Positions 1 to 16,765 of a stretch of 25,842 nt of DNA are shown in pieces (positions within the stretch are counted from its first letter, which is position 1; each line of letters begins with the position of its first letter). Where the stretch lies: positions 1 through 25,842 of IMG/VR virus record IMGVR_UViG_2609459774_000006, one strand, 5' to 3'. Below the pieces are notes generated by a model. The model was not told where the DNA came from. It worked only from the letters and a program-made list of their open reading frames with translations, and searched no databases. Origin of the DNA: a virus. Its lineage: Duplodnaviria; Heunggongvirae; Uroviricota; Caudoviricetes. The translations under genes and the position numbers were made by a program.

Positions 1-405
1 ATGGATCAGGTCGTTGTTTTTCAAAAGATGTTTGAGCAAGTGAGAAAAGAGCAAAACTTCTCCTGGTTTTATTCAGAATTAAAACATCACCGTATTGCAC
101 ATTACATTTATTATCTGGCTACGGATAACATCAGAATTATTACTCACGATGACACGGTTTTGTTATTAAGAGGAACCAGGAACCTGTTAAAAGTTAGTAC
201 GACCAAGAACCCTGCTAAAATAAAAGAGGCCGCATTGCTTCATATTTGCGGAAAATCTACATTTCGGGAATACTGTTCAACACTAGCAGGCGCGGGCGTT
301 TTCCGGTGGGTTACTGATGTTAATCATAACAAACGCAGTTACTACGCCATTGATAATACGCTTTTATATATTGAAGATGTAGAAAATAATAAACCATTAA
401 TCTAG
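1..405 (+). CDS. ycgX: YcgX-like DUF1398 family protein (134 aa), chromosomal
   Basis: Complete 134-aa ORF starting at base 1; size and position next to iraM match the E. coli ycgX-iraM neighbourhood as recalled; no search run. Confidence 0.5.
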   Translation: MDQVVVFQKMFEQVRKEQNFSWFYSELKHHRIAHYIYYLATDNIRIITHDDTVLLLRGTRNLLKVSTTKNPAKIKEAALLHICGKSTFREYCSTLAGAGVFRWVTDVNHNKRSYYAIDNTLLYIEDVENNKPLI

Positions 406-610
406 CTAAAGTTGGATGCTTAAGAAATGCTTCATAATTCAGTAAGGCATTAGCATAATGGGAATAAAAGTACAGAGACTATCCCTATGGATGATAAATA
501 CTGTCCTTTTATTGCTACCCATAAATAATCACCATGCCAATACTATCAAATTGATATTTGAAATGTGATCACTTGACTTTCTATACGTTATTTTATAACG
601 GTTAATATAT

Positions 611-668
611 TTATAAAAACAACGGGTGTGCCATACGCCCGTTTCAATACTTAACGCACATGTGTTTT
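611..668. repeat. Copy A of a ~58-bp repeat containing a stem-loop (621-643); near-identical to the sequence following the icd fragment at 1471-1528
   Basis: Direct alignment by eye: aacgggtgtgccatacgcccgtt vs aacgggcgtgttatacgcccgtt with similar flanks; on the minus strand the hairpin is followed by a T-rich run. Confidence 0.45.
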
Positions 669-1100
669 GGTTTAGTCATCATCCAGTTATATGTATTTTA
701 GCCAGGAACAGGTTAAACCTTTCCTATATAACTCAAAAATTGAAACCTTATTCTCATGTCATGCTTATATTCATTATTATCGTTATATAAAAAGGCAACC
801 ATAATGTTTAGCAAATTGGCACAAAGTAGCATAAAGGCTATGTTTTAATTACAGGATGTTCAGTCATTTGAATGTATAACATTATAGCTAAACAAATCTA
901 AAACGAAGTGAATAATTTATTGTTTTCTCTAAATCTCATTTTGTTTAACATCCATTGAGATTCCTTGCTTTAAATTTTGTTTTATATAAGCAATCGTTTT
1001 AATTAATTTATTTTTTGAAGGGGTAATATACTCATATGCAAAATAAAGAAATGAACATCCAAATGAACTATATTAAATACCGTGGGATAAGACATAACAA

Positions 1101-1424
1101 ATGAAGTGGATAGTAATTGACACGATAATTCAACCTTCATGCGGCATATCTTTTTCAGCCATATGGGGTAATATGAAAATGATCATCTGGTATCAATCTA
1201 CTATATTTCTCCCTCCTGGCAGTATATTTACACCGGTTAAATCTGGAATTATCCTTAAAGATAAAGAATATCCTATTACTATTTATAACATCGCACCATT
1301 CAACAAGGATTTATGGAGTCTACTCAAAAGCAGTCAAGAGTGTCCTCCAGGAGAAAGCAAAATAACAAATAAATGTTTGCATAATAGTTGCATTATAAAA
1401 ATATGCCCATATGGGCTCAAGTAA
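1101..1424 (+). CDS. iraM: Anti-adaptor protein IraM (RssB inhibitor), 107 aa
   Basis: 107-aa [35 protein letters not shown]... closely matches recalled IraM sequence and length. Confidence 0.8.
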
Positions 1425-1470
1425 AGGGTTTTATATAAATATGCTCGATATGCTATTAATAATACCTACA

Positions 1471-1528
1471 TAAATAAAACAACGGGCGTGTTATACGCCC
1501 GTTGCAATATTAAACACATGTAGTGATT
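1471..1528 (-). terminator. Copy B of the repeat; intrinsic terminator of icd on the minus strand (stem-loop 1481-1503 followed by T-run when read on the minus strand)
   Basis: Perfect stem aacgggcg/cgcccgtt directly downstream of the icd-fragment stop codon (1527-1529). Confidence 0.55.
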
Positions 1529-1691
1529 ACATGTTCTTGAGGATCGCATCACCAAATTCTGAACATTTCAGCAGTTTAGCGCCTTCCATCAGACGTTCGA
1601 AGTCATAGGTTACGGTCTTGGCATTGATTGCGCCTTCCATACCTTTAACAATCAGGTCTGCGGCTTCGGTCCAACCCATGTGGCGTAACAG
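1527..1691 (-). pseudogene. icdC: 3' fragment of isocitrate dehydrogenase gene (last 54 codons, icdC-type remnant) marking the prophage attachment junction
   Basis: Minus-strand translation [54 protein letters not shown] matches the Icd C-terminus; no 5' part of the gene is present upstream. Confidence 0.85.
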
Positions 1692-2390
1692 TATATAAAA
1701 ACATTAAGTTCAAGCCATTGATATTTAATGATAAAAATTATTTTATTGTTTTTTTATTAGCCAAAATCAACTTTATTCAACCGTTTGATTTCATTGACGT
1801 TCGTTTTTATTTTGGGGAAAGGTTTTCTCTACCATTTATATCCAAATTACAAGTCTACATTTTATTAACATCTCAATACATGTGAGGCCTTGCAGACCTT
1901 TGTGAGACCTTATGTGTCTCTGTTTTGTCCCAACTTATGTTAAGAGGCACATAATTAAAAATAAGATAACGATGCCGCCAAGCAGTGCAAAACCTTGTTT
2001 ACTCCACGACTGTCTGCCCCATTATCTGCATACATAATTATCTTCCATAACTGAGATAAATGTCGGTTATGAGCGAACAACAGACGTTTAGTTTATGATG
2101 GCTGTGTCTATACATTAAACATAACATCCATTACCGGCACCGCTTATTAATTGCTATCTGATATTGTCACTAAAAAATAGGCATTCCCCGATATAATAAT
2201 CACAAAGAAGCTTTTGGTGCTGGCAATCGGTATACCTAATAGTGGACTGCGACTTTCCGGACTCGACAAGGATATATCAATGTATGAGCAGGAAAATTAG
2301 ACCGTGGTGCGTCATATGATGACTAAGCACGGATAACAGCTACTTAATTGAAACTATTGATTATATTACAGCCAGTGCCTTATAGGATGG

Positions 2391-3512
2391 TTAGTCATCA
2401 ACCGCGACTCCTGCACAATCATGGGCTATTGCCAGCAATTGTTTTTTAATTGCTTTAGCATCTACCGTCATATCTACTGTAGCAAAATGGATCTTATGTC
2501 CCTGAGTGACAACATACTCATTAAGCATATAGCCAACAGCTGGATGAAGTAGAAGACCAGCGGCATTGAGCGAAAGCGGATCCGTCTTGTTCTCCTGTGT
2601 TCTAAGGTAGGTATATAGCTGATAAATATAGCCATTACGTAGTGATTGCTCCCGATGCCAACCCTTTGTCAGAATCGAATTAAATTTGGTATCGATAATA
2701 ATACGCCGCTGGGCAGTCTTGTGTTCCAGAATAATGTCTGACTTCATTGTCGGGAAAATCTCTGCACTACCTGCACTTTGATCGCTCAACGCCCATTTCA
2801 GCTCTTTCCCTGCAGAGACCTGCCAAGTTGTTTTGGCAAGGTGTACACGATATAAGCCAGCGATACCTTTTTCAAATAGTCTTCTCATCCAGTAAAGGTT
2901 ATTTGAGGGCGCAGGTAAAAGATATTGGCCTTGATCTTCGGTCGGCATCAGCAGTTCAAAAGCTAATCGTGCGGCATCGACCATCGGTTTATCTGCGGCA
3001 TCATGGCGTCCAAAACGCCACACTGAGGGTAATTCGTGGGGGGCAGGATATCCTCCATTTATCCCCTCACGGCGAAGTGATATTGCCATAAAATGGCAAT
3101 CTGCCGCCAAAGACGGTTTCACTATGATTGAGGCCAGATGTTCTAACGCACAGCGAACATAGCGATTTCGGGGGGTGTTGAGGGTTATGTCTTGAAAATG
3201 GCAGGCAACCTGTCCCCGTTCCAGTAGTTGATGACTGGCAGTATACAGTATGTCAATGCGCCCTCTCACTCGGTTCAGGGCCGCATGACAAGTTTGGTAT
3301 CCCATATTTAAATTGCGACGTCGGCGCAGCGTAATCTCATGAAGGAGGATTGTCGCCACCAGGTCGGGGATTTCTGCTGGGTTATCTTCTACTGCGATCT
3401 GATTGCGCCCTAACTGACGAAACAGATCTGAAGCGTACAGCATCAGCATCCAGATATTTCGCATGGGAATACGTGATGCTGTATGTTGCTCACTCCCGGT
3501 TATTGTCGTCAT
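2391..3512 (-). CDS. McrC-like subunit of a McrBC-type (type IV, modification-dependent) restriction system, 373 aa
   Basis: Follows and overlaps the McrB-like gene by 4 bp; C-terminal PD-(D/E)xK-like segment (..ILEHKTAQRRIIIDTKF..). Confidence 0.7.
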   Translation of the reverse strand: MTTITGSEQHTASRIPMRNIWMLMLYASDLFRQLGRNQIAVEDNPAEIPDLVATILLHEITLRRRRNLNMGYQTCHAALNRVRGRIDILYTASHQLLERGQVACHFQDITLNTPRNRYVRCALEHLASIIVKPSLAADCHFMAISLRREGINGGYPAPHELPSVWRFGRHDAADKPMVDAARLAFELLMPTEDQGQYLLPAPSNNLYWMRRLFEKGIAGLYRVHLAKTTWQVSAGKELKWALSDQSAGSAEIFPTMKSDIILEHKTAQRRIIIDTKFNSILTKGWHREQSLRNGYIYQLYTYLRTQENKTDPLSLNAAGLLLHPAVGYMLNEYVVTQGHKIHFATVDMTVDAKAIKKQLLAIAHDCAGVAVDD

Positions 3513-5491
3513 TTTGCTAATAACACTTTTCTGGCTTCATCGACTTTATTTGGAGCATCGAACCAATATTCGGCGAGCAAAGGGCAGATCTCTGTATCAA
3601 CGACTTGTTCATACCAAGCCTGGGCATCGTTGATTTTTTGGCCGATAGCTGGGGTGACATAGCTGTGACCGATACAAAACTGTGGTCCTAAGGTAACATC
3701 TTTTGCCAGCATATCGTTAAGTACCGTCAGTCGAGATTTGATGAATGCTAACATGTCAAAATCAATTGCGTAATTATAATTTACCCAGTTTCTCCACGCG
3801 TCATTAAAAGCTGGCTTTAGATCGATAAACGCGAAACGACGGCGCAGCGCTAGGTCAAGTAGTGCGAGTGAGCGGTCTGCAATATTCATCGTACCGATGA
3901 TATATAGATTCTCAGGAATGTATATTTTTTCATCATCATTTTTAGGATAGGAAAGAGATAATGCCTCAGTCGGCGTGCGTTTATCTGCTTCCATCAACGT
4001 GAGTGTTTCACCGAAGATTTGCGCCGGATTGCCACGATTAATCTCTTCAATTATCACCACATATTTCGAGGTAGGATTATTGACTGCAGTTTTGATTGCA
4101 TTTACAAAAGGTCCATCAATTAGCGTCAATTGCCCTTCTTTACCTGGACGCCAGCCGCGAATAAAGTCTTCGTAAGAGAGGTTCGGGTGAAATTGCACCG
4201 CGCTAATACGCTCAGGTGCTTTTTCTCCCATCAAGCAGTACGCCAGACGTCGCGCTAACCAGGTTTTTCCAGTTCCGGGTGGTCCTTGTAATATCAGGTT
4301 TTTCTTGTCGATCAGGCGCTGAAGTGTGAGTTGGATCTTAGCCTCTTCCAAGAAACAGCCATCCTGCACCAGATGACTGATGTCATAAGGAACGTGAGTG
4401 AGTTTTGGCAACGGCGCACTCTCTTCGACAGTTTCCTCAGTTATCGTCTGGGATTCATTTTTCTCAAAATTCAGGTATTCATAATTTCCGGACTCAAGGG
4501 ACTTTAACTCATCATCATTGCATAGTTTCTGTAGATAAAAGTAGATTGAGCTTGTAACTGTTTTGCTCTCAGGATGCTCTACCTTGAATACGTCCAAGTA
4601 GTTTTCTTCCAACTCCGAAGCAGTGAAATAAGGGCCATTTTTTTTCAGGCATAACGCCTTAATTTTATTCAGTAAAGAGGCTTTCCACGTTCTATTTGCC
4701 ACCTCATCTTTAGACTGGCTAAGATCTGTATTCCACGCTGATAAAGAAAGTTCTGGGAAAGAATGAACCGGATAGTTTGGTTGGGTAAAGACCTCGTTCA
4801 GCGCCCGCATAAGACTCAGGTAACTTTGTCCACTACAGCGACCTTTTGCCCCGTTTTTAATGATCTTAATGTTTAACACTGTCTGAATGTAATACTGCGA
4901 CTGGCTATCTAAAGTAGGGTAGAACCAAGGACGGGTCCAGTACAACCCCATGGTGAGATTCCAACCGACATTCATTACTGTAGAAGCAATGTCATATGCG
5001 GCAGTGAAGTCTGCAGAGTTAGTATTCTGGTTATCCGCAAAGGTCATTGCCTGCGAGAACATTTCCCACAAGCATTCAATGTCATTAGGGTCGCGTGACT
5101 TTTCATAACCAAAGAACCAAGATTTTTGGTTATTCAACAGCGGGATTCCGGCAAAGGAGTCAGGAATCGGTTCGTTCACGCCCAACAAATTCGCTAGCTT
5201 GGCAGCAATAATTTTGCGATTGCTGTCGGTCAAGTTACGATTGAACAAGCCCATAGTAGTAAACGGACAAATGTCTTTTAAGGGAAAGATCTCTCCCATA
5301 ATAGATTTGTCCTGCAGATGGGACATTCCTTCCACACCTGAGGCAATTAGATGAATACCTTTGACTAATTCATCTCTACGATTTCGCCAAGTCAGTAACG
5401 CGTTGGCAAAAGCCTCATAAAAACTAGCCCAAGCAAATTTGCCATCATGTTCTGCTGTATCCACGGGAACTCCATTATACTTGTTGAGCAA
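3509..5491 (-). CDS. McrB-like AAA+ GTPase (660 aa) with a ~395-aa N-terminal region unlike canonical McrB
   Basis: Walker A LILQGPPGTGKTW and McrB-type signature IIGTMNIADRSLALLDLALRRRF in the C-terminal ~260 aa; N-terminal region not recognised. Confidence 0.8.
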   Translation of the reverse strand: MLNKYNGVPVDTAEHDGKFAWASFYEAFANALLTWRNRRDELVKGIHLIASGVEGMSHLQDKSIMGEIFPLKDICPFTTMGLFNRNLTDSNRKIIAAKLANLLGVNEPIPDSFAGIPLLNNQKSWFFGYEKSRDPNDIECLWEMFSQAMTFADNQNTNSADFTAAYDIASTVMNVGWNLTMGLYWTRPWFYPTLDSQSQYYIQTVLNIKIIKNGAKGRCSGQSYLSLMRALNEVFTQPNYPVHSFPELSLSAWNTDLSQSKDEVANRTWKASLLNKIKALCLKKNGPYFTASELEENYLDVFKVEHPESKTVTSSIYFYLQKLCNDDELKSLESGNYEYLNFEKNESQTITEETVEESAPLPKLTHVPYDISHLVQDGCFLEEAKIQLTLQRLIDKKNLILQGPPGTGKTWLARRLAYCLMGEKAPERISAVQFHPNLSYEDFIRGWRPGKEGQLTLIDGPFVNAIKTAVNNPTSKYVVIIEEINRGNPAQIFGETLTLMEADKRTPTEALSLSYPKNDDEKIYIPENLYIIGTMNIADRSLALLDLALRRRFAFIDLKPAFNDAWRNWVNYNYAIDFDMLAFIKSRLTVLNDMLAKDVTLGPQFCIGHSYVTPAIGQKINDAQAWYEQVVDTEICPLLAEYWFDAPNKVDEARKVLLAK

Positions 5492-5829
5492 TGATAATTT
5501 ATCTGTGTGAGTTTTAACATATTACTATCAGTTATAGAAAAATTTAACTACCCGATACAGAGAGCGGCATGCTGAATTTGACCTGACTTGCTTCCAACTA
5601 ATTAAAATCAACTTATTTATCAATTGGTTATTTTGGCGCATAGCGGTCATCAAGGGAATATCGCGTTGTCATAAGGTGTCGAGGCTCGGAGGTTCAAATC
5701 CTCTCATGCAAAAAATAAATAAAATTAATGACGGTTGGAAATTATTCAATACATACACTCTCGAAAGTGCATCAGCCAACCGCAGCACGTCTTGCATACG
5801 GCGTGTCTGCAGTTTTATATAATCCTGGC

Positions 5830-6055
5830 TGGAAACCTCTTATACAAAGTAGATACACCAATATCATAGATGATCGCCACCTTCTGACGCGGGACTTTTG
5901 ATGCAATTAATCGCCCGGCCTGCGCCCATTGTTCTGATGTAAGTTTAGGACGACGTCCACCAATTCCTCCCTGTGCGCGAGCATCTTCCAGTCCAACTTT
6001 TGTTCAGTCATCAATCAGTTCACGCTTCATTTCAACCAGGGCTCCATCACATGGA
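5830..6055 (-). pseudogene. C-terminal remnant of a Pin/Gin-family serine DNA invertase (HTH domain only, frameshifted)
   Basis: Minus-strand translation ..TKVGLEDARAQGGIGGRRPKLTSEQWAQAGRLIASKVPRQKVAIIYDIGVSTLYKRFPAS; upstream catalytic domain absent and frame broken. Confidence 0.6.
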
Positions 6056-6529
6056 AAAATAAAAAAAACCATCGATGTTGACGTGTCAATGTTACCTGTC
6101 AGGCTACGGAAATCCCCCCCTTACCCGCAGCTACTCGGTAAGTATAATAAGATGTTTCCTGCTCCTTCCTAACCTGTCCAGTTTCCAGACAATTAAAGTA
6201 TCACCTTATATAAGAGACTGCAGAGCGCACTTTAACCTAGGTCGTTCTGAAATAGTTGCAGATTCGATTAATCAACGATTATACTCCCCGGCACTCCAGA
6301 GGATCTGGTAAACATAAAGTCAGAGCTTGGGTATACTGGCACACAAATGGCAGATCTTGCAGGTGCAGCCAGTCATAGCCAGTGGCGAAAATACACGAGT
6401 GGTTCTGAGCCCCGCGCCATGTCATCACATATCTTGTTTTTTTATTGCTACCAATCTGACTTTGAGTACTAATGAGCTAGATAGAATTGTTTGTAAAATA
6501 AAAAAAATTGGAACAGTGATTATATAAAA

Positions 6530-7618
6530 ATGAAGAAGGTAAAATCAATTCACTATTTGCGAGGTGTAGCAGCATTACTCGTTGTTGCATATCACAATAA
6601 ACAATACCTAAATGAAGTTTACGCACAAAAAGATCTAGGTGATTTATTGTTTATTAGTGGTGGTTTTGGGGTTGATCTGTTTTTTATTATAAGTGGATTT
6701 ATAATAATGTTATCGAGTCAAAAAAAAGAAACAAATTCTCCTATTAACTTTATGACCAGGCGTTTTTTCAGGATTTACCCTGTATTTTTCATTTGCACAA
6801 TCTTATTCTTTTTATTGAACCCAGTCTTCACCGAAAGTGAATTATTGCGTTCATTGTTTCTGCTTCACCTGGACTATTATTCAGAAGCGCCATTCTTCGG
6901 ATACAACGTGCTTTATCCAGCATGGACATTAACCTTTGAAGTCTATTTTTATTTCATTTTTATGCTTGCAATATCGATGAGTCATAAAAACAGATTATTA
7001 ATATCAGTTATTGCATTGATAGTCCCGCTACTTCTCATACAGTTGAAATTTTCCAACAGCCTTTCTCTATCAAGTAAGTTTACGATTGGTGATACAGGTC
7101 ATTGGCATATTGGCTTTCTAAACTTAATGTCATCACCCATGCTGTTAGAATTCGTTTATGGGATGTTTCTGTATATAATACACAGAAAATTTAAATATAT
7201 AAAAAACGCAAAGGCGATATCATTCCTTTTGGTTTCATTTGGTGTTTGCTCATATTTTTATCAATTCAGATTTGGTCATGGCCCTTTAAACTTCGGATTG
7301 TGGGCAGCCTCCATAATTACGGGAGTTTTACTTTATGAAGTTAACTTCGGATTAAGGGAAAATAAAATACTCAGTAAGCTAGGTGATATCTCTTACTCTC
7401 TGTATTTATCCCATGCGATAGTAATGCTATTTTTAATTAATTTTAAGGATTTCATTCCGCTTTATGAAAAACCTGGGTTCTCTAAGTTTTCATTCATTAT
7501 TGCTCTTAGCTTGTTCTTATCATTCTTTATTTATAAATATATTGAAACTCCATTCATTAATATCGGAAAAACAATATCCAAAAGACTTTCAAAACCAACA
7601 TTAACTTATAGCGAATAG
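6530..7618 (+). CDS. Acyltransferase family 3 (OafA/Oac-like) integral membrane protein, 362 aa
   Basis: N-terminus MKKVKSIHYLRGVAALLVVAYH and multi-TM hydrophobic profile typical of the family; strongly AT-rich gene. Confidence 0.7.
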   Translation: MKKVKSIHYLRGVAALLVVAYHNKQYLNEVYAQKDLGDLLFISGGFGVDLFFIISGFIIMLSSQKKETNSPINFMTRRFFRIYPVFFICTILFFLLNPVFTESELLRSLFLLHLDYYSEAPFFGYNVLYPAWTLTFEVYFYFIFMLAISMSHKNRLLISVIALIVPLLLIQLKFSNSLSLSSKFTIGDTGHWHIGFLNLMSSPMLLEFVYGMFLYIIHRKFKYIKNAKAISFLLVSFGVCSYFYQFRFGHGPLNFGLWAASIITGVLLYEVNFGLRENKILSKLGDISYSLYLSHAIVMLFLINFKDFIPLYEKPGFSKFSFIIALSLFLSFFIYKYIETPFINIGKTISKRLSKPTLTYSE

Positions 7619-8093: not shown

Positions 8094-8808
8094 TCAATGT
8101 TCGCTTCCTGTTAACTGCCGGACAAGTGCAACCAGTTCGCTTACCTGATTTTCCAGAGTGCTGATCCGGGTGCCTGCTGTTGCCAGATTTTGACGTAGCG
8201 TTGTGTTTTCCTCTTCCAGCGCGGTAACGCGATCATCTGTTTCACGGGCGACCTGAACAAGTAAACCCGTCACGGCGGAGTAGTCAACATTAAGATAGCG
8301 AGTTTCTTCGCGTAGCTCGTTGCCGTCAACGGTCGGACCTTGCAACTCTTCACCATAATGAGTAAACGATCCCACAGCTTCTGGTATCGCCTCCATTACT
8401 TCCTGTGCAATAACGCCAGCATAAGGCATCCCGTTTTCCTTGAGCGTGTAGGTGTATCCGTTCATTTTACGGATTGCTTTCGTCGCGTCGCTGATAACGA
8501 GAATATCGTCTTTAAGGTCGCGGTCTGATGACTGATTCAGCGTTGTGCAATTAATAGCGCCATTTACATCAAACAACTGGCCTGCTGACGTTTTTTGCGC
8601 ATAAAACAGATACGCAGCAGACGTTCCAACCTCAAAAACGTTTTGTCGAGTACTGGAACCCCACACCCTGACAGAAAACGGTAGTTCTGCATTACCTGAG
8701 TTCTGTAAAACAAAACGATTACCAGTCCCTGATTGCTTTGTAAGGGTTAAATCAACGGTTGAGTTAACCTCATTCTTGTTGATAGTGAGCGTCTGCGCTG
8801 TAGCCCCG
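8094..8808 (-). pseudogene. C-terminal fragment of a side tail fibre protein (no start; fused to lysozyme remnant)
   Basis: Frame stays open upstream of the 190-aa ORF to ~8808 (..[22 protein letters not shown]..); coiled-coil tail ..TALEEENTTLRQNLATAGTRISTLENQV. Confidence 0.55.
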
Positions 8809-9091
8809 TTATATCAACTTTTATGTACGGGTTAATTTGTCTGGCGACCGTGGCAAGGTCTTTATTCAGGAGGGCTTTGCATTCTGCTTTGGTATACGTT
8901 TTACCGAGCATGATGTCTTTTCCTGTATGCCCGTGACATACAGTCCATACACCAACAATATCTTTGTATGGTATGTAGCTGACACCTTCCAGACCATCGT
9001 TACCACTTGGGCCAGTGATTAACACTGATGCTATAGCAATTGCTCCGCCACCAATAGCAGCAGCAACGGCTTTTCGTAATGATGGAGGCAT
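8747..9091 (-). pseudogene. rrrD: Truncated phage lysozyme (RrrD-like N-terminal ~94 aa, then out-of-frame junk)
   Basis: [57 protein letters not shown]... matches lysozyme N-terminus; homology ends near 8812 where the tail-fibre frame begins. Confidence 0.75.
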
Positions 9092-9894: not shown

Positions 9895-10977
9895 ATGAAA
9901 AAATTAACAGTGGCAATTTCTGCTGTAGCTGCATCAGTACTGATGGCGATGTCTGCTCAGGCAGCTGAAATTTATAATAAAGACAGTAACAAGCTGGATC
10001 TATATGGGAAAGTTAATGCCAAGCACTACTTCTCCTCTAATGATGCAGATGATGGTGATACTACTTATGCCCGTCTTGGCTTCAAAGGTGAAACCCAAAT
10101 CAACGATCAACTGACTGGTTTCGGTCAGTGGGAATATGAATTCAAAGGCAACCGCGCTGAATCTCAAGGCTCCTCCAAAGACAAAACCCGTCTTGCATTT
10201 GCAGGCCTGAAATTCGGGGACTACGGCTCAATCGATTACGGCCGTAACTACGGTGTAGCATATGACATCGGTGCGTGGACTGACGTTCTGCCAGAATTCG
10301 GTGGCGATACCTGGACCCAAACAGATGTGTTCATGACTGGTCGCACCACTGGTGTTGCAACTTATCGTAACAACGACTTCTTTGGTCTGGTTGATGGTCT
10401 GAACTTTGCTGCTCAGTATCAGAGTAAAAATGACCGCACTGACGTAACTGAAGCTAATGGTGATGGTTTCGGTTTCTCCACTACTTATGAGTATGAAGGA
10501 TTCGGTGTAGGTGCAACCTATGCTAAATCTGACCGCACTAATAATCAGGTTATCTACGGTAACAACAGCCTGAATGCATCTGGTCAAAATGCTGAAGTAT
10601 GGGCAGCTGGTCTGAAATATGATGCGAACAACATCTATCTGGCTACCACCTATTCTGAAACCCAGAACATGACTGTTTTTGGTAATAACCATATTGCCAA
10701 CAAAGCACAAAACTTCGAAGTAGTTGCACAATATCAGTTCGACTTCGGTCTGCGTCCGTCCGTTGCTTACCTGCAATCTAAAGGAAAAGACTTGGGTGCG
10801 TGGGGTGATCAGGACCTGGTTGAATATATTGATGTAGGTGCAACCTATTACTTCAACAAAAATATGTCCACTTTTGTTGATTACAAAATCAACCTGATTG
10901 ATAAGAGCGATTTCACGAAAGCATCTGGCGTTGCTACCGATGATATCGTTGCTGTAGGTATGGTTTACCAGTTCTAA
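9895..10977 (+). CDS. nmpC: Outer-membrane porin of the OmpC/OmpF family (NmpC/OmpD-like), 360 aa, intact
   Basis: Signal peptide [23 protein letters not shown], porin-type beta-strand sequence ending ..VGMVYQF; SD aaaaaggg upstream. Confidence 0.85.
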
Positions 10978-13299: not shown

Positions 13300-13929
13300 C
13301 TAAAACAAGGATAAACTTTGCCCTGCTCCAGGCGTTGGCTTTACAAATGTTACATCTTTAATTCTTTCGCCTAGGAGAAAAAATTTGTCCAAAGATAGCG
13401 ATGGTATTGTTGCAAACCCATCAGCCCCCTTTTTCCTAGCAACCCCTCTCACGTCCATGAGAATTCGCCCTAATACGTTCATACCATAATAGTTACCTTC
13501 TGGGTCTTTACTGGCACCCCAGAATTGGTCCTTCTCTGAGTGTTCCACGATGAAATGGTCGCCTGTACTGTCTAACAGCGCAAAGAACGTATCCCAGTTC
13601 TGGCATAATTTTACGCATACACACCACTTCATAATCGAAACTCGATTCTTATCCCATCCTGCGCGAGTTTTGGATTCAAACGATCTTGCGGTCTGCTTGG
13701 CTTCATAGGGGTTTCCTTGAGTAATGATGGCCTTTTGTATATCCGGATAGTCTGGATATCGGCATGCTTGGTAAAGGATTTCACTTGATTGAATAGGCAA
13801 CCCATTGATTAACAATGGATATCCTTTAGCCATGTTGGAAAGCCCCCCCCATTTTTCGGTGGTTTTCCTGAAGGAAACTGTGTTCTGTAGCGGATATAAT
13901 CTATAGCTCATACCACTCATTATACCCAT
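13300..13929 (-). CDS. NADAR (YbiA-like, DUF1768) domain protein, ~203-209 aa; alternative starts at 13929, 13920 and 13911
   Basis: Family hallmarks: ..GGLSNMAKGYPLLINGLPIQSSEILYQACRY.. and ..LLDSTGDHFIVEHSEKDQFWGASKDPEGNYYGMNVLGRILMDVRG; overlaps the upstream gene. Confidence 0.75.
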   Translation of the reverse strand: MGIMSGMSYRLYPLQNTVSFRKTTEKWGGLSNMAKGYPLLINGLPIQSSEILYQACRYPDYPDIQKAIITQGNPYEAKQTARSFESKTRAGWDKNRVSIMKWCVCVKLCQNWDTFFALLDSTGDHFIVEHSEKDQFWGASKDPEGNYYGMNVLGRILMDVRGVARKKGADGFATIPSLSLDKFFLLGERIKDVTFVKPTPGAGQSLSLF

Positions 13930-14932
13930 TCCGCTTCATTAGTGGATACCAGCAGTCCAATGCGGGAGCACCTGTTGGTTCATAATCTCCCCACCAAAAA
14001 GCCAGCGGCACATTATTCGGGCAATTTCGATAAGTAAATGTTGTTCCCCCAAAACCCAAACCGTCAAAAGTAGAAAAACCTAGAGGTTTGAGCACCTCAC
14101 TAGGGGTTTTCCTGTGCAGCAAGATATTAAAGCCGACTTTAGTAAGGATAGATTCGAAACGATCCCTTGAGGCTTCATTTCTAAAACTATCAGAAGAGGC
14201 ATATCCATCTCTGAATACGCCTTTGTAAAGCTCACACTCCTCGAATTTCTCGGGAGTATCTACACTATATTTCCTTGGCCAGAAAACACCTGATTGAGCA
14301 GAACGACTTTTTCGGTTTTCAACCTCACGCATACCACCATTCTTCACGTGTACAAAAATGTTTCTATCCTTAAAAATATATTCTAATCGTCTTTTTATAT
14401 TATAGTCAGATAACGTATGAGATGAAAAAAAATATACATTGAATTTAATATCTCTTAAATTAAATTTTAAAACAAAATTACTTATCGATTTGATGGCCTT
14501 TTCTCCTGAAAACGACACATCATCAATATATACAAATGTATCAAATTTATTTACTTCATCTTGAGTTGATGATTCAGTAACGATGTTAAATTTGATCCCT
14601 ACTGTTTCATAAAGAGATTTAAGCAATTCCTTCTGACTAGAACCTTTTTTTTGAATATCTAAAAAACCTGCATATCTGAAGAATTTCGCGTTCTTTTCAC
14701 TTCTTGCAATGGCTTTTATTTTTCGTTGATATTGACTTTCGGATAGGTAACCTGCATTAAGTAGATAAAGCGTTTCATCTAAGATAAATCGTCTATCCTC
14801 CACTGCAAATTGCTTAATCCATTTGCTGACATGTTCAGAGTTCATACCTTCAGCCGGAGGATATTTATAATCGCTCAACTTTTCAGCAATTTTATTGATT
14901 ACTTTTTCACCAGATAAAATATTCGAGGACAT
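13901..14932 (-). CDS. Unknown 343-aa protein with a PRPP-binding-loop-like motif (FVYIDDVSFSGEK); partner of the NADAR gene
   Basis: Long ORF with SD AAGGAA 8 nt before ATG; very AT-rich; motif hhhhDDxxxSG resembles type I phosphoribosyltransferase loop, but the fold is unverified. Confidence 0.6.
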   Translation of the reverse strand: MSSNILSGEKVINKIAEKLSDYKYPPAEGMNSEHVSKWIKQFAVEDRRFILDETLYLLNAGYLSESQYQRKIKAIARSEKNAKFFRYAGFLDIQKKGSSQKELLKSLYETVGIKFNIVTESSTQDEVNKFDTFVYIDDVSFSGEKAIKSISNFVLKFNLRDIKFNVYFFSSHTLSDYNIKRRLEYIFKDRNIFVHVKNGGMREVENRKSRSAQSGVFWPRKYSVDTPEKFEECELYKGVFRDGYASSDSFRNEASRDRFESILTKVGFNILLHRKTPSEVLKPLGFSTFDGLGFGGTTFTYRNCPNNVPLAFWWGDYEPTGAPALDCWYPLMKRNGYNEWYEL

Positions 14933-15143: not shown

Positions 15144-15728
15144 TTAAGAATAAACATCAGTAACTCGGGCCGGGCTTAATGCTACGGTTGGCGAATCACA
15201 CTTGTTTCCCCATACGTCGAAACCGTGGGAGGATTTACGCGCAAAGAGCTCAATACGTGGAAGATTACCCAGCAACCGAACCAGCATTTCACGCACGCAG
15301 TCTGGTTTACGTGAGTGCTCATGTCGCGGCGAGGTGTAGTGCTGGATGATCGAGGCGTCCTGCTGTGGTGCCCGCTTACCCTTTACCGCGAAAAGACAAT
15401 CTTCACGGTTCGCCCGGATCAGGTGTCCCATTCCCATCGCCGATTTGTCAGTTTGCTTCGGGTAGGTTTTATCCCAAGTGAAACCTTTCATTGTGATCAG
15501 GCGAAATCCCCAGGCATCGACGACTTTCATCGCCTCGAACGTTTGAGTTGGCAACCACCACATCGCCAGCTGGCAGCTTTCTGCAACCCGCTCCCTTACT
15601 GGCAGCCAGCAGATATCCTGCACCGTCATAACCAAGTATTTATGCCCGGTGCCACGCTTACCAGAATTGCATTTATCCTCGTACGTCCAGGGCGGATCCG
15701 CTTAGATCAACGTGTATTTCTTGTTCAT
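15144..15728 (-). pseudogene. MT-A70-type phage DNA N6-adenine methyltransferase interrupted by a TAA at codon 9
   Basis: Minus-strand reading MNKKYTLI*ADPPWTYEDKCNSGKRGTGHKYLVMTVQDICWLPV...; DPPW catalytic motif lies just after the stop (15702-15704). Confidence 0.7.
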
Positions 15729-15730
15729 GG

Positions 15731-15925
15731 TTAAATAAATCCGACTGCTTTACGCGCTTTGTATTGCTCAAGCAAAAGCTGAGCGGGAGTCGGCCCGGGC
15801 ACGTGGCGCGGAGCCGAGATTTGTTTTCTGACCGGAGGGATTGGTTTGCCCTCACTGACGCGCTTCTCCCACATGTCCAGCAGGTCACCAGCCTCGCATG
15901 CCAGCTCGCCATGCGTTAAACCGAA
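15731..15925 (-). pseudogene. P: C-terminal fragment of replication protein P (about 63 aa)
   Basis: ..GLTHGELACEAGDLLDMWEKRVSEGKPIPPVRKQISAPRHVPGPTPAQLLLEQYKARKAVGFI* aligns with the lambda P C-terminus as recalled; no N-terminus on this strand. Confidence 0.5.
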
Positions 15926-15929
15926 TTTT

Positions 15930-16178
15930 GCAGGGTGGGCTAACGATATCCGCCTGATGCGTGAACGTGACGGACGTAACCACCGCGACATGTGCGTGCT
16001 GTTCCGCTGGGCATGCCAGGACAACTTCTGGTCCGGTAACGTGCTAAGTCCGGCCAAACTCCGCGACAAGTGGACCCAACTCGAAATCAACCGTAACAAG
16101 CAACAGGCTGGTGTGACTGCCAGCAAACCAAAACTCGACCTGACAAACACTGACTGGATTTACGGGGTGGAGCTATGA
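15930..16178 (+). pseudogene. O: C-terminal fragment of replication initiator O (about 81 aa), on the opposite strand to the O N-terminus
   Basis: ..ANDIRLMRERDGRNHRDMCVLFRWACQDNFWSGNVLSPAKLRDKWTQLEINRNKQQAGVTASKPKLDLTNTDWIYGVEL* matches the lambda O C-terminus. Confidence 0.6.
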
Positions 16179-16765
16179 AAAATATTGCCGCGCAGATGAT
16201 TAACTTTGACCGTGAGCAGATGCGTCGAATCGCCAACAACATGCCGGAACAATACGACGAAAAGCCGCAGGTGCAGCAGGTGGCGCAGATCATCAACGGT
16301 GTGTTCAGCCAGCTGCTTGCGACATTTCCGGCAAGCCTCGCGAACCGCGACCAGAACGAGCTGAACGAAATCCGCCGTCAGTGGGTTATGGCTTTCCGTG
16401 AAAATGGAATTACCACTATGGAGCAGGTTAACGCCGGAATGCGCGTGGCCCGCCGACAGGAGCGACCATTCCTGCCGTCGCCCGGCCAGTTCGTAGCGTG
16501 GTGTAAGCAGAGTGGCGGGGCGTTAGGTATCACTGTTGACCAAGTCATAACCGAATACTGGGATTGGCGTAATCGTTCCTTCGAATTCACTTCCAGCGAG
16601 CATTTCCCGTGGTCACAGCCTGTCATGTACCACATCTGCGTCGAACTGCGCCACCGTAGCATTGAGCGCCAGTTTCTGGCTGATGGCGCGATGGTCTTCA
16701 CCATGTCAAACATCCACTCTGCGGCGGTCAGGTCTTCTGCTGTCCCCCACCTGCTGCCGCTCTGA
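16175..16765 (+). pseudogene. P: N-terminal ~170 aa of replication protein P (helicase loader); the ORF tail after ~16680 is probably not P
   Basis: MKNIAAQMINFDREQMRRIANNMPEQYDEKPQVQQVAQIINGVFSQLLATFPASLANRDQNELNEIRRQW.. matches the lambda P N-terminus; start overlaps the O stop as in lambda. Confidence 0.65.

What the first reader, a model, noticed from the sequence alone, without database searches (positions are those of the whole stretch)
2391..5491. McrBC-like restriction module with an atypical long N-terminal domain, at the prophage end beside the icd junction
The 660-aa protein has an unmistakable McrB-type GTPase core (GPPGTGKTW, MNIADRS) but about 395 aa of unrecognised N-terminal sequence where canonical McrB has a short m5C-binding domain. 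The 4-bp-overlapping partner has a PD-(D/E)xK-like C-terminus. The pair lies between the icd remnant and a Pin-invertase remnant, which is where e14 of K-12 carries mcrA (established knowledge). This suggests a swappable defence slot in icd-integrating prophages and a possibly new modification specificity.
Basis: partly seen in the sequence, partly recalled or inferred. Interest (0 to 1): 0.6.

Follow-up and report, generated by a model that had tools for sequence, protein, structure and literature searches.

The report
McrBC restriction system, unusual targeting domain
An intact two-gene McrBC-type anti-phage restriction system sits at the end of a decayed E. coli prophage, and instead of the usual methylcytosine-binding head its motor protein carries a widespread but uncharacterised domain (DUF8425) plus a DpnI-type winged helix, so what DNA it attacks is unknown.

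Summary
Window 3509-5491(-) encodes a McrB-type GTPase and 2391-3512(-) its McrC nuclease partner. All catalytic motifs are intact. The pair is chromosomal in 305 of 5426 complete E. coli genomes at >=99% identity. It lies between the e14-type attR/icd remnant and a pin remnant, exactly where K-12 e14 carries mcrA.

The N-terminal region is not an orphan. It comprises DUF8425 (Pfam PF28527, about 250 aa, all-alpha), a DpnI_C-type winged helix (about 76 aa) and an acidic linker. This matches the 'NTD-wH-NTPase + McrC' class listed but not characterised by Helbrecht et al. 2024.

DUF8425 has 1,953 cluster representatives across many phyla. In 55 of 55 full-flank loci it is joined to a McrB motor, and in 54 of 55 McrC is present. 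It is also fused to a McrC nuclease half, a KAP NTPase and an FRG domain, so it behaves like a mobile specificity module.

It is unrelated to the canonical McrB N-domain and is not a PUA/EVE/SRA/YTH fold. Its nearest structural neighbours are HhH-GPD DNA glycosylases, but only weakly. The winged helix lacks DpnI's G6mATC-reading residues. The slot is variable but also holds non-defence cargo.

Verdict: a known kind of system with an uncharacterised targeting module. Interest is moderate.

The parts
3509..5491 (-). mcrB-like gene. The maximal ORF is 660 aa from TTG 5491. The probable start is GTG 5464, giving 651 aa (WP_000379042.1, annotated 'AAA family ATPase').
4718..5464 (-). DUF8425 domain (ORF residues 10-258). 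All-alpha, AF2 pLDDT 93. Conserved motifs are KDICPFT and WNLTMGLYW..P..F.TLD, with Asp186 in RefSeq numbering (ORF residue 195).
4457..4684 (-). DpnI_C-type winged-helix domain (ORF residues about 270-345). The recognition helix reads S-S-I-Y-F-Y-L-Q where DpnI has E-K-I-R-Q-Q-L-Q.
4358..4456 (-). Acidic linker predicted to be disordered (ORF residues 346-378, pI 4.2, pLDDT below 50).
3512..4357 (-). McrB-type AAA+ GTPase plus lid. Motifs (ORF numbering): Walker A GPPGTGKT 403-410, Walker B VIIEEINR 479-486, signature MNIAD (NxxD) 535-539, RRRF 550-553. It is 47% identical to K-12 McrB 166-459.
2391..3512 (-). mcrC gene (373 aa from the overlapping ATG; RefSeq also uses M17, giving 357 aa). 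PD-(D/E)xK residues are D259 and D274-T-K276, matching K-12 D244 and D257-A-K259.
1694..5802 (.). Cargo segment with no counterpart in K-12 e14, which has 1.2 kb with mcrA here. It is bounded by attR and by the pin remnant. GC is 0.39-0.50.
1527..1693 (-). icd 3' remnant (icdC). The e14-type attR boundary is at about 1693.
5803..6262 (-). Remnant of a Pin-type invertase gene (frameshifted, internal stop), 76% identical to K-12 pinE over 404 nt.

Best explanation
The pair is a functional McrBC-type (Type IV, NTP-driven) restriction system carried as cargo at the attR end of a defective lambdoid/e14-like prophage integrated in icd.

Shown here: McrB has a K-12-like GTPase motor and lid, and McrC has the DUF2357-type activator region plus a PD-(D/E)xK nuclease with the catalytic D...D-x-K triad. 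The two genes are translationally coupled.

Inferred from the K-12 and T. gammatolerans McrBC structures and biochemistry: McrB forms a hexamer that McrC plugs into. The N-terminal modules tether the complex to target DNA, GTP hydrolysis drives translocation, and McrC cuts.

What differs is the tether. The 5mC-flipping DUF3578 domain is replaced by DUF8425 plus a DpnI-type winged helix. I infer that DUF8425 is the primary DNA or modified-base sensor. It is the constant partner of the motor across phyla, and it is also fused directly to a McrC-type nuclease half and to other effectors. The winged helix is an optional accessory duplex-DNA-binding module, present in about one third of relatives.

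The target is probably a base modification absent from the Dam+ Dcm+ host, because no methyltransferase accompanies the system. It is not read as G6mATC in the DpnI manner. The actual ligand is unknown.
For: - McrC passes the NCBIfam equivalog NF007277 (355.8 bits against cutoff 338). McrB residues 378-654 match McrB profile positions 176-452.
- A PDB sequence search gives E about 1e-77 to EcoK McrB, residues 174-450.
- Walker A, Walker B, NxxD and RRRF are intact, and so is the McrC D259/D274/K276 triad.
- The genes overlap as ATGA. The same coupling is seen in distant loci.
- 305 of 5426 complete E. coli genomes carry the locus at >=99% identity. The exact protein occurs on at least 1000 contigs.
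- DUF8425 has 1,953 cluster representatives. In species-representative genomes, 55 of 55 full-flank loci have the motor, 54 of 55 have McrC, and 18 of 55 have the winged helix.
- Other DUF8425 fusions are to a McrC nuclease half, a KAP NTPase, an FRG domain and a zinc ribbon.
- The relative on Proteus R997 lies in a cluster of type I R-M genes, mcrC and another restriction endonuclease.
- DpnI's methyl-pocket and GATC-reading residues E228/K229/R231/Q232 (PMC3424567) are replaced by S/S/Y/F.
- No methyltransferase is adjacent in the window or in three distant loci.
Against: - There is no experimental evidence for this protein or for any DUF8425 protein. A literature search found nothing, and the only reported purification attempt on the class failed (PMC11037411).
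- DNA binding by DUF8425 is inferred from architecture alone. The domain is acidic (pI 5.4) and has no significant match to any DNA-binding fold.
- The host prophage is decayed, so expression is not assured. The promoter scan found no more sites than shuffled sequence, and none directly upstream of mcrB.
- The winged-helix match in this particular protein is below the Pfam threshold (16.3 bits against 23).
Confidence: 0.7

Rival explanations
1. DUF8425 is a divergent HhH-GPD-type module that acts enzymatically. It would be a DNA glycosylase that excises a modified (perhaps purine) base from invading DNA, and the McrBC motor and nuclease would then act at or between the resulting lesions.
For: - Nearly all of the top 50 Foldseek hits are Ogg2, OGG1 or MutY. 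The best is SsOgg at E 0.16, probability 0.69.
- hhalign against MutY aligns DUF8425 151-199 with the MutY HhH-to-D138 motif.
- Asp186 is at least 90% conserved, lies at the N-cap of a helix after a Pro-rich loop, and is kept in the McrC-, KAP- and FRG-fused versions.
Against: - The profile search of PDB sequences gives no hit at E <= 10.
- hhalign against EndoIII, MutY and AlkA gives probabilities of 0.5% or less.
- There is no Pfam HhH-GPD match.
- The G-x-G hairpin of a canonical HhH is not conserved across the family.
- PDB redundancy for OGG1 inflates the Foldseek list.
- A conserved Asp can be purely structural.
Confidence: 0.12
2. The system is sequence-specific rather than modification-dependent, like the LlaJI, LlaI and BsuMI McrBC relatives. 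It would cut unmodified sites and rely on a cognate methyltransferase for self-protection.
For: - Non-canonical McrBC homologs that target DNA site-specifically exist (abstract of bioRxiv 10.64898/2026.08.31.748284).
- Winged-helix domains commonly read sequence.
- The R997 relative lies next to type I R-M genes.
Against: - No methyltransferase gene is adjacent in the E. coli locus or in three distant loci.
- The only methyltransferase gene in the prophage is a pseudogene that carries the same stop in prophages where I saw no pair.
- The two-gene organisation differs from the three-gene organisation that abstract gives for LlaI and BsuMI.
Confidence: 0.06
3. DUF8425 does not read DNA. It would sense a phage protein or small molecule, or act as a regulatory or oligomerisation domain, and DNA contact would come only from the winged helix and the motor.
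For: - The domain is acidic (pI 5.4).
- It has no significant similarity to any DNA-binding fold.
- It is fused to KAP NTPases and FRG domains, which occur in conflict systems of varied logic.
Against: - Two thirds of DUF8425-McrB proteins have no winged helix or other recognisable DNA-binding module. DUF8425 then sits where every characterised McrB has its DNA-targeting domain.
- A direct fusion to a PD-(D/E)xK nuclease half mirrors the sensor-nuclease enzymes.
- Tandem copies occur.
Confidence: 0.08
4. The pair is an inactive relic of a decaying prophage.
For: The surrounding prophage has a pin pseudogene, a 5.9-kb deletion, an inversion and an MT-A70 pseudogene.
Against: - Both ORFs are intact with all catalytic motifs.
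- They are >=99% identical in 305 genomes.
- Close orthologs (70-89% identity) are kept in seven other Enterobacterales genera.
Confidence: 0.04

Closest known systems
EcoKMcrBC (E. coli K-12 mcrB/mcrC)
   Same: - Two translationally coupled genes.
- The McrB GTPase and lid are 47% identical, with Walker A, Walker B, NxxD and RRRF.
- McrC has the same D...D-x-K nuclease triad.

   Different: - The N-terminal DUF3578 5mC-flipping domain is absent, and there is no detectable similarity to it.
- McrC is only 24% identical.
- The location is a prophage end at icd rather than the hsd-mcr region.
NTD-wH-NTPase + McrC-like class of Helbrecht et al. 2024 (PMC11037411)
   Same: [quoted passage not shown]
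   Different: - The class was only listed there, with no member characterised.
- Here the NTD is identified as DUF8425, and the winged helix turns out to be an optional insert in a much larger DUF8425-McrB family.
- This member lacks the 6mA/GATC motif.
R.DpnI C-terminal winged helix (PDB 4esj, 4kyw)
   Same: The winged-helix family (Pfam DpnI_C) and the 'LQxL' recognition-helix framework with Q235 are shared.
   Different: - E228, K229, R231 and Q232, which form the methyl pockets and read GATC, are S, S, Y and F here.
- The domain is attached to a motor rather than to a PD-(D/E)xK domain.
EcoKMcrA of prophage e14
   Same: It occupies the same slot between pin and attR of an icd-integrated prophage, and it is also a Type IV restriction function.
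   Different: It is an unrelated single-chain NEco-HNH enzyme. There is no sequence similarity between the two cargo segments.
McrB homologs with other reader heads (T. gammatolerans YTH-McrB; EVE- and PUA-type fusions)
   Same: The design principle is the same: a swappable N-terminal specificity domain on a conserved McrB motor (PMC11037411 and PMC11090510).
   Different: DUF8425 is all-alpha. It is not a PUA-superfamily beta-barrel.
HhH-GPD DNA glycosylases (Ogg2, OGG1, MutY, EndoIII)
   Different: - Similarity is below every significance threshold.
- There is no sequence-profile link.
- The glycine hairpin is not conserved.

Membership tests
McrBC Type IV restriction system | McrB-type AAA+ GTPase with Walker A, Walker B and the NxxD signature | tested here: met
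   AAA_5 at E 3.5e-27. PDB McrB at E about 1e-77. GPPGTGKT, VIIEEINR, MNIAD and RRRF are present.
McrBC Type IV restriction system | Adjacent McrC with an N-terminal activator region and a PD-(D/E)xK nuclease | tested here: met
   Pfam McrBC at E 1.2e-20. NCBIfam NF007277 scores 355.8 bits, above the 338 cutoff. D259 and D274-T-K276 align to K-12 D244 and D257-A-K259.
McrBC Type IV restriction system | mcrB upstream of mcrC in one operon | tested here: met
   The genes overlap by 4 bp as ATGA. Distant loci show the same coupling.
McrBC Type IV restriction system | GTP-dependent cleavage of modified DNA | not testable with these tools
   This needs biochemistry or phage plating.
EcoKMcrB equivalog (NCBIfam NF008457) | N-terminal DUF3578 5mC-binding domain and a full-length score above the cutoff | tested here: not met
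   The score is 265.5 bits against a cutoff of 637, and only profile positions 176-452 match. hhalign probability to K-12 McrB-N is 0.1% and the best blastp E is 8.3.
NTD-wH-NTPase/McrC class (Helbrecht 2024) | A DpnI_C-type winged helix between an N-terminal domain and a McrB-like NTPase | tested here: met
NTD-wH-NTPase/McrC class (Helbrecht 2024) | The 6mA/GATC recognition motif of the DpnI winged helix (present in about 10% of wH fusions) | tested here: not met
   DpnI E228-K229-x-R231-Q232 aligns to S-S-x-Y-F in the window. None of the aligned NTD-wH-McrB homologs whose recognition helix is present keeps the motif.
Pfam DUF8425 (PF28527) | A match to the family model | tested here: met
   This is indirect, because the local Pfam copy lacks the model. 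Homologs at 42-72% identity over the whole domain carry the precomputed PF28527 hit.
HhH-GPD DNA glycosylase superfamily | The two-lobed all-alpha HhH-GPD fold | tested here: inconclusive
HhH-GPD DNA glycosylase superfamily | An HhH hairpin (h-x-G-h-G) followed about 20 residues later by a conserved Asp | tested here: inconclusive
   Asp186 is at least 90% conserved and 21 residues after 'GVG' in the consensus. The Gly positions vary (G/A/K/N/S) across the family.
HhH-GPD DNA glycosylase superfamily | Sequence-profile similarity to known members | tested here: not met
   There is no Pfam hit at E <= 10. The profile search of PDB sequences gives no hit at E <= 10. hhalign against Nth, MutY and AlkA gives probabilities of 0.5% or less.

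The most novel reading that the evidence does not exclude
DUF8425 is a highly diverged HhH-GPD-derived base-flipping module. It could be an active glycosylase or a catalytically silent reader. That would make this the first glycosylase-fold sensor coupled to a McrBC motor, and it would probably be specific for a modified purine that known E. coli Type IV enzymes do not see (for example a 7-deazaguanine or Mom-type adenine adduct). With 1,953 cluster representatives across many phyla, it would be a major unrecognised specificity class of Type IV restriction, with a native E. coli member available for testing.
Probability: 0.15. Interest if true: 0.75.

Novelty: new variant of a known kind. Interest (0 to 1): 0.4.

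Why it matters
McrBC systems are among the commonest Type IV restriction systems, and their biology is set by what the N-terminal head recognises. DUF8425-McrB is a large family found across many phyla, and no member has a known ligand, structure or phenotype. The only published attempt to purify a member failed.

About 5.6% of complete E. coli genomes carry a member that can be tested in the best genetic system available, using existing collections of modified phages. Identifying its target would assign a function to a Pfam DUF. It could also explain host-range barriers in the E. coli lineages that carry it.

The locus also documents that the attR-proximal end of icd-integrated prophages is a cargo slot that exchanges defence genes (mcrA, this pair, an AAA+HNH pair) and fitness genes (sitABCD).

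Tried and rejected
1. Canonical McrB N-domain. There is no similarity by NCBIfam, blastp or hhalign.

2. PUA, EVE, SRA and YTH folds. These are rejected by the all-alpha, high-confidence model and by the fold-search lists.

3. DpnI-like G6mATC reading by the winged helix, which would be suicidal in a Dam+ host. It is rejected because the pocket and GATC-reading residues are replaced.

4. Sequence-level proof of an HhH-GPD relationship. hhalign against E. coli Nth, MutY and AlkA and a profile search of PDB sequences gave nothing significant. An attempt to assemble a diverse HhH-GPD profile from PDB hits was abandoned because the best matches were too similar to each other. The AFDB fold libraries were unavailable.

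5. The idea that the prophage MT-A70 methyltransferase was inactivated because it conflicts with the mcrBC-like pair. It is rejected because the same internal stop is annotated in FREC5 and in L73, where the related prophage sits at tRNA-Arg, and neither fetched stretch shows the pair.

6. Known reader domains in the extra N-terminal or inserted regions of longer DUF8425-McrB relatives. Pfam found none in ten proteins.

7. Phage carriage. No DNA or protein match exists in 50,697 phage records.

8. Rfam. No RNA family is found in the window.

9. PADLOC. Only generic restriction-enzyme and ATPase models hit McrB, and nothing hits McrC.

It was repeated with the single protein.
Full report
**1. 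The observation**

The six-frame ORF list shows a 660-aa ORF at 3509..5491(-) and a 373-aa ORF at 2391..3512(-). They overlap by 4 bp, with the mcrC ATG inside the mcrB stop as ATGA. Pfam gives AAA_5 (E 3.5e-27, residues 398-553) for the first and the McrBC family (E 1.2e-20) for the second.

NCBIfam places the second above the McrC equivalog cutoff (355.8 bits against 338). It matches the first to the McrB model only over residues 378-654, which correspond to profile positions 176-452, at 265 bits against a cutoff of 637. A search of PDB sequences gives E about 1e-77 to E. coli McrB residues 174-450 and nothing for residues 1-374.

Pairwise identity to K-12 is 47% for the motor and 24% for McrC. 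Walker A (GPPGTGKT), Walker B (VIIEEINR), the McrB signature NxxD (MNIAD) and RRRF are present. In McrC, D259 and D274-T-K276 align with the K-12 catalytic residues D244 and D257-A-K259.

There are two start-codon corrections. The GTG at codon 10 has GGAG 5 nt upstream and is the RefSeq start, giving 651 aa. RefSeq uses either M17 or the overlapping ATG for McrC in different genomes. The conserved 'IP.RNI' upstream of M17 favours the overlapping start.

**2. Context**

The locus is chromosomal in 305 of 5426 complete E. coli genomes at >=99% identity. It is absent from 50,697 phage records at both the DNA and protein level. The annotated order in strain E94 is ycgX, iraM, icd remnant, mcrC, AAA ATPase, recombinase pseudogene, acyltransferase, tail fibre.

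Against K-12, window 1-1693 is collinear with ycgX to icdC up to the e14 attR (95.6% identity). Window 5803-6206 matches pinE (76%). The 4.1 kb in between has no K-12 counterpart, and K-12 has mcrA in 1.2 kb there.

Sampling other lysogens at this junction shows several cargos:
- the same pair (ETEC1739);
- an AAA ATPase plus a 'retron system putative HNH endonuclease' (LH09-a);
- acetyltransferase, IS66 and ompT (2014C-3011);
- sitABCD (Ecol_244 and XYEH3783).

The slot is variable cargo space that is often, but not always, used for defence.

**3. The N-terminal region**

A word-indexed search with residues 10-375 found 277 proteins at 42-72% identity. Most are McrB-type ATPases, with precomputed Pfam tags PF28527, PF28529 and, for those covering residues about 270-350, PF17726. 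A later context look-up gives the names: PF28527 is DUF8425 and PF28529 is McrB_lid. PF17726 is DpnI_C.

The architecture is DUF8425 (ORF residues 10-258), a winged helix (about 270-345), an acidic disordered linker (346-378) and then the motor. Helbrecht et al. [quoted passage not shown] They did not characterise them, and their one purification attempt failed (PMC11037411). A literature search for DUF8425, PF28527 or the protein accession found nothing.

**4. How common, and with what partners**

An exhaustive HMMER search of 1.84 billion cluster representatives with DUF8425 alone gave 1,953 proteins at E <= 1e-3 and 293 at E <= 1e-30. Of the 146 top-listed representatives analysed, 101 have a detectable McrB motor downstream, and most of the rest are short, probably partial sequences. 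Variants have an extra domain of about 160 aa in front, two or three tandem DUF8425 copies, or inserts of 100-500 aa. Pfam recognises nothing in those extras in ten proteins tested.

In species-representative genomes, 80 loci were recovered from Enterobacterales (70-89% identity in Buttiauxella, Serratia, Citrobacter, Erwinia, Lonsdalea, Enterobacter and Leclercia). They also came from Desulfobacterota, Cyanobacteria, Bacteroidota, Chloroflexota, Nitrospirae, Acidobacteriota and others. Of the 55 loci with full flanks, all 55 have the motor, 54 have McrC and 18 have the winged helix. The winged helix is therefore an optional insert in a larger DUF8425-McrB/McrC family.

DUF8425 also occurs in these contexts:
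- fused directly to a McrC-type nuclease half (P0232);
- fused to a KAP P-loop NTPase (P0224);
- fused to an FRG domain on Bacteroidales plasmids;
- fused to a zinc ribbon (P0142);
- free-standing next to a DUF8425-McrB gene.

On Proteus R997 a relative lies in a cluster of type I R-M genes, mcrC and another restriction endonuclease. This is how the specificity modules of modification-dependent nucleases behave, and it is the main basis for inferring that DUF8425 is the targeting domain.

**5. Fold of DUF8425**

AlphaFold2 with a 97-sequence alignment gives a confident all-alpha model (pLDDT 93, pTM 0.91).

hhalign against E. coli MutY aligns DUF8425 151-199 with the MutY HhH-to-Asp138 segment, but with P = 0.11. 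Asp186 is at least 90% conserved and caps a helix after a Pro-rich loop. It is kept in the McrC-, KAP- and FRG-fused forms.

Against the link:
- a profile search of all PDB sequences gives no hit at E <= 10;
- there is no Pfam HhH-GPD match;
- the glycine hairpin of a canonical HhH is not conserved across the family.

I therefore treat 'HhH-GPD-like' as a lead, not a finding.

**6. The winged helix and Dam**

DpnI's recognition helix uses E228, K229, R231, Q232 and Q235 to form the two 6mA methyl pockets and read GATC (PMC3424567). In the window protein the aligned residues are S, S, Y, F and Q. None of the aligned NTD-wH-McrB homologs whose recognition helix is present keeps the E-K-x-R-Q motif.

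The protein is thus not predicted to read G6mATC in the DpnI manner. That removes the apparent conflict with the Dam+ host. It also means 6mA specificity cannot be assumed.

**7. Most likely mechanism**

Shown: an intact McrB motor, an intact McrC nuclease, coupled genes, and a conserved two-gene core across phyla. No adjacent methyltransferase is seen in the window or in three distant loci.

Inferred from the solved K-12 and T. gammatolerans complexes (known biology, cited in PMC11090510): a McrB hexamer is activated by McrC, the N-terminal heads bind target DNA, GTP hydrolysis drives translocation, and McrC cleaves.

Inferred here: DUF8425 is the primary sensor and the winged helix adds duplex contacts. 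The target is a modification foreign to E. coli. The ligand is unknown.

**8. Side test**

The prophage carries an MT-A70 methyltransferase pseudogene with a stop just before the DPPW motif. The same stop is annotated in FREC5 and in L73, where the related prophage sits at tRNA-Arg, and neither fetched stretch shows the pair. It is therefore not evidence of a conflict with this system.

**9. Verdict**

The finding is real and correctly placed. It is a McrBC system (a known kind) with a targeting region that has been catalogued (Pfam DUF8425; the Helbrecht class) but never characterised.

It is a good experimental entry point because it is native to E. coli. The general idea that McrB heads are swappable is well established, so a specialist would be interested rather than surprised. 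Interest is 0.4. The glycosylase-fold reading, if confirmed, would raise it considerably.

Noticed in passing
window 15144-15734 (-): An MT-A70 family (6mA-type) methyltransferase pseudogene has a stop codon immediately before the catalytic DPPW motif ('MNKKYTLI*ADPPW'). Only 19 of 5426 complete genomes carry the gene. The stop is annotated in all three copies inspected, including one in a prophage at tRNA-Arg. A conserved stop could mean recoding or an old inactivation.
   Followed up: partly
window 13300-14932 (-): Overlapping genes for a 'phosphoribosyltransferase-like protein' (343 aa) and a NADAR family protein (about 204-209 aa) lie in the nin region of the prophage. They are conserved in related prophages, and some relatives have a DGQHR-domain protein nearby. 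This could be an accessory or defence/anti-defence pair.
   Followed up: no
window about 8806-8811: Relative to strain E94 the window lacks 5.9 kb (tail fibre, lom, terminase fragments, nohD, ylcI, iss). The deletion fuses the tail-fibre gene remnant to the lysis region.
   Followed up: partly
window 15918-16674: A 757-bp segment within the replication genes (P and O-like) is inverted relative to strain E94, with 100% identity on both sides. It could be a real inversion or an assembly difference.
   Followed up: no
window 6530-7618 (+): An AT-rich (GC about 0.32) acyltransferase family gene (362 aa, multi-pass membrane protein) lies between the pin remnant and the tail-fibre remnant. It resembles prophage O-antigen or surface-modification morons.
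   Followed up: no
window 9895-10977 (+): A prophage-borne OmpC-like porin gene (360 aa) lies between the lysis genes and the Q antiterminator gene.
   Followed up: no
L007 8145-10134 (E. coli LH09-a): The same attR-proximal slot holds an AAA family ATPase plus a 'retron system putative HNH endonuclease'. This two-gene pair looks like a different defence system.
   Followed up: no
L010 7976-11425 and L011 8132-11581: In Ecol_244 and XYEH3783 the slot next to the icd remnant carries sitABCD (an iron/manganese transporter). The cargo position is therefore shared by virulence or fitness genes.
   Followed up: partly
L012 5948-6703: A free-standing, very divergent DUF8425 protein (251 aa, lacking the conserved Asp) is encoded just upstream of a DUF8425-McrB/McrC pair in a metagenomic genome.
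   Followed up: no
P0121, P0123 and other proteins: Some relatives have two or three tandem DUF8425 copies or a conserved leader of about 160 aa ('...FTF..KPQDIDRFRNAPYWRERFGD') before DUF8425. Pfam recognises none of these extras.
   Followed up: partly
window 759 versus L001 17034-18364: Strain E94 has an IS2 insertion between ycgX and iraM that the window lacks, so the window comes from a different strain than its best full-length match.
   Followed up: no
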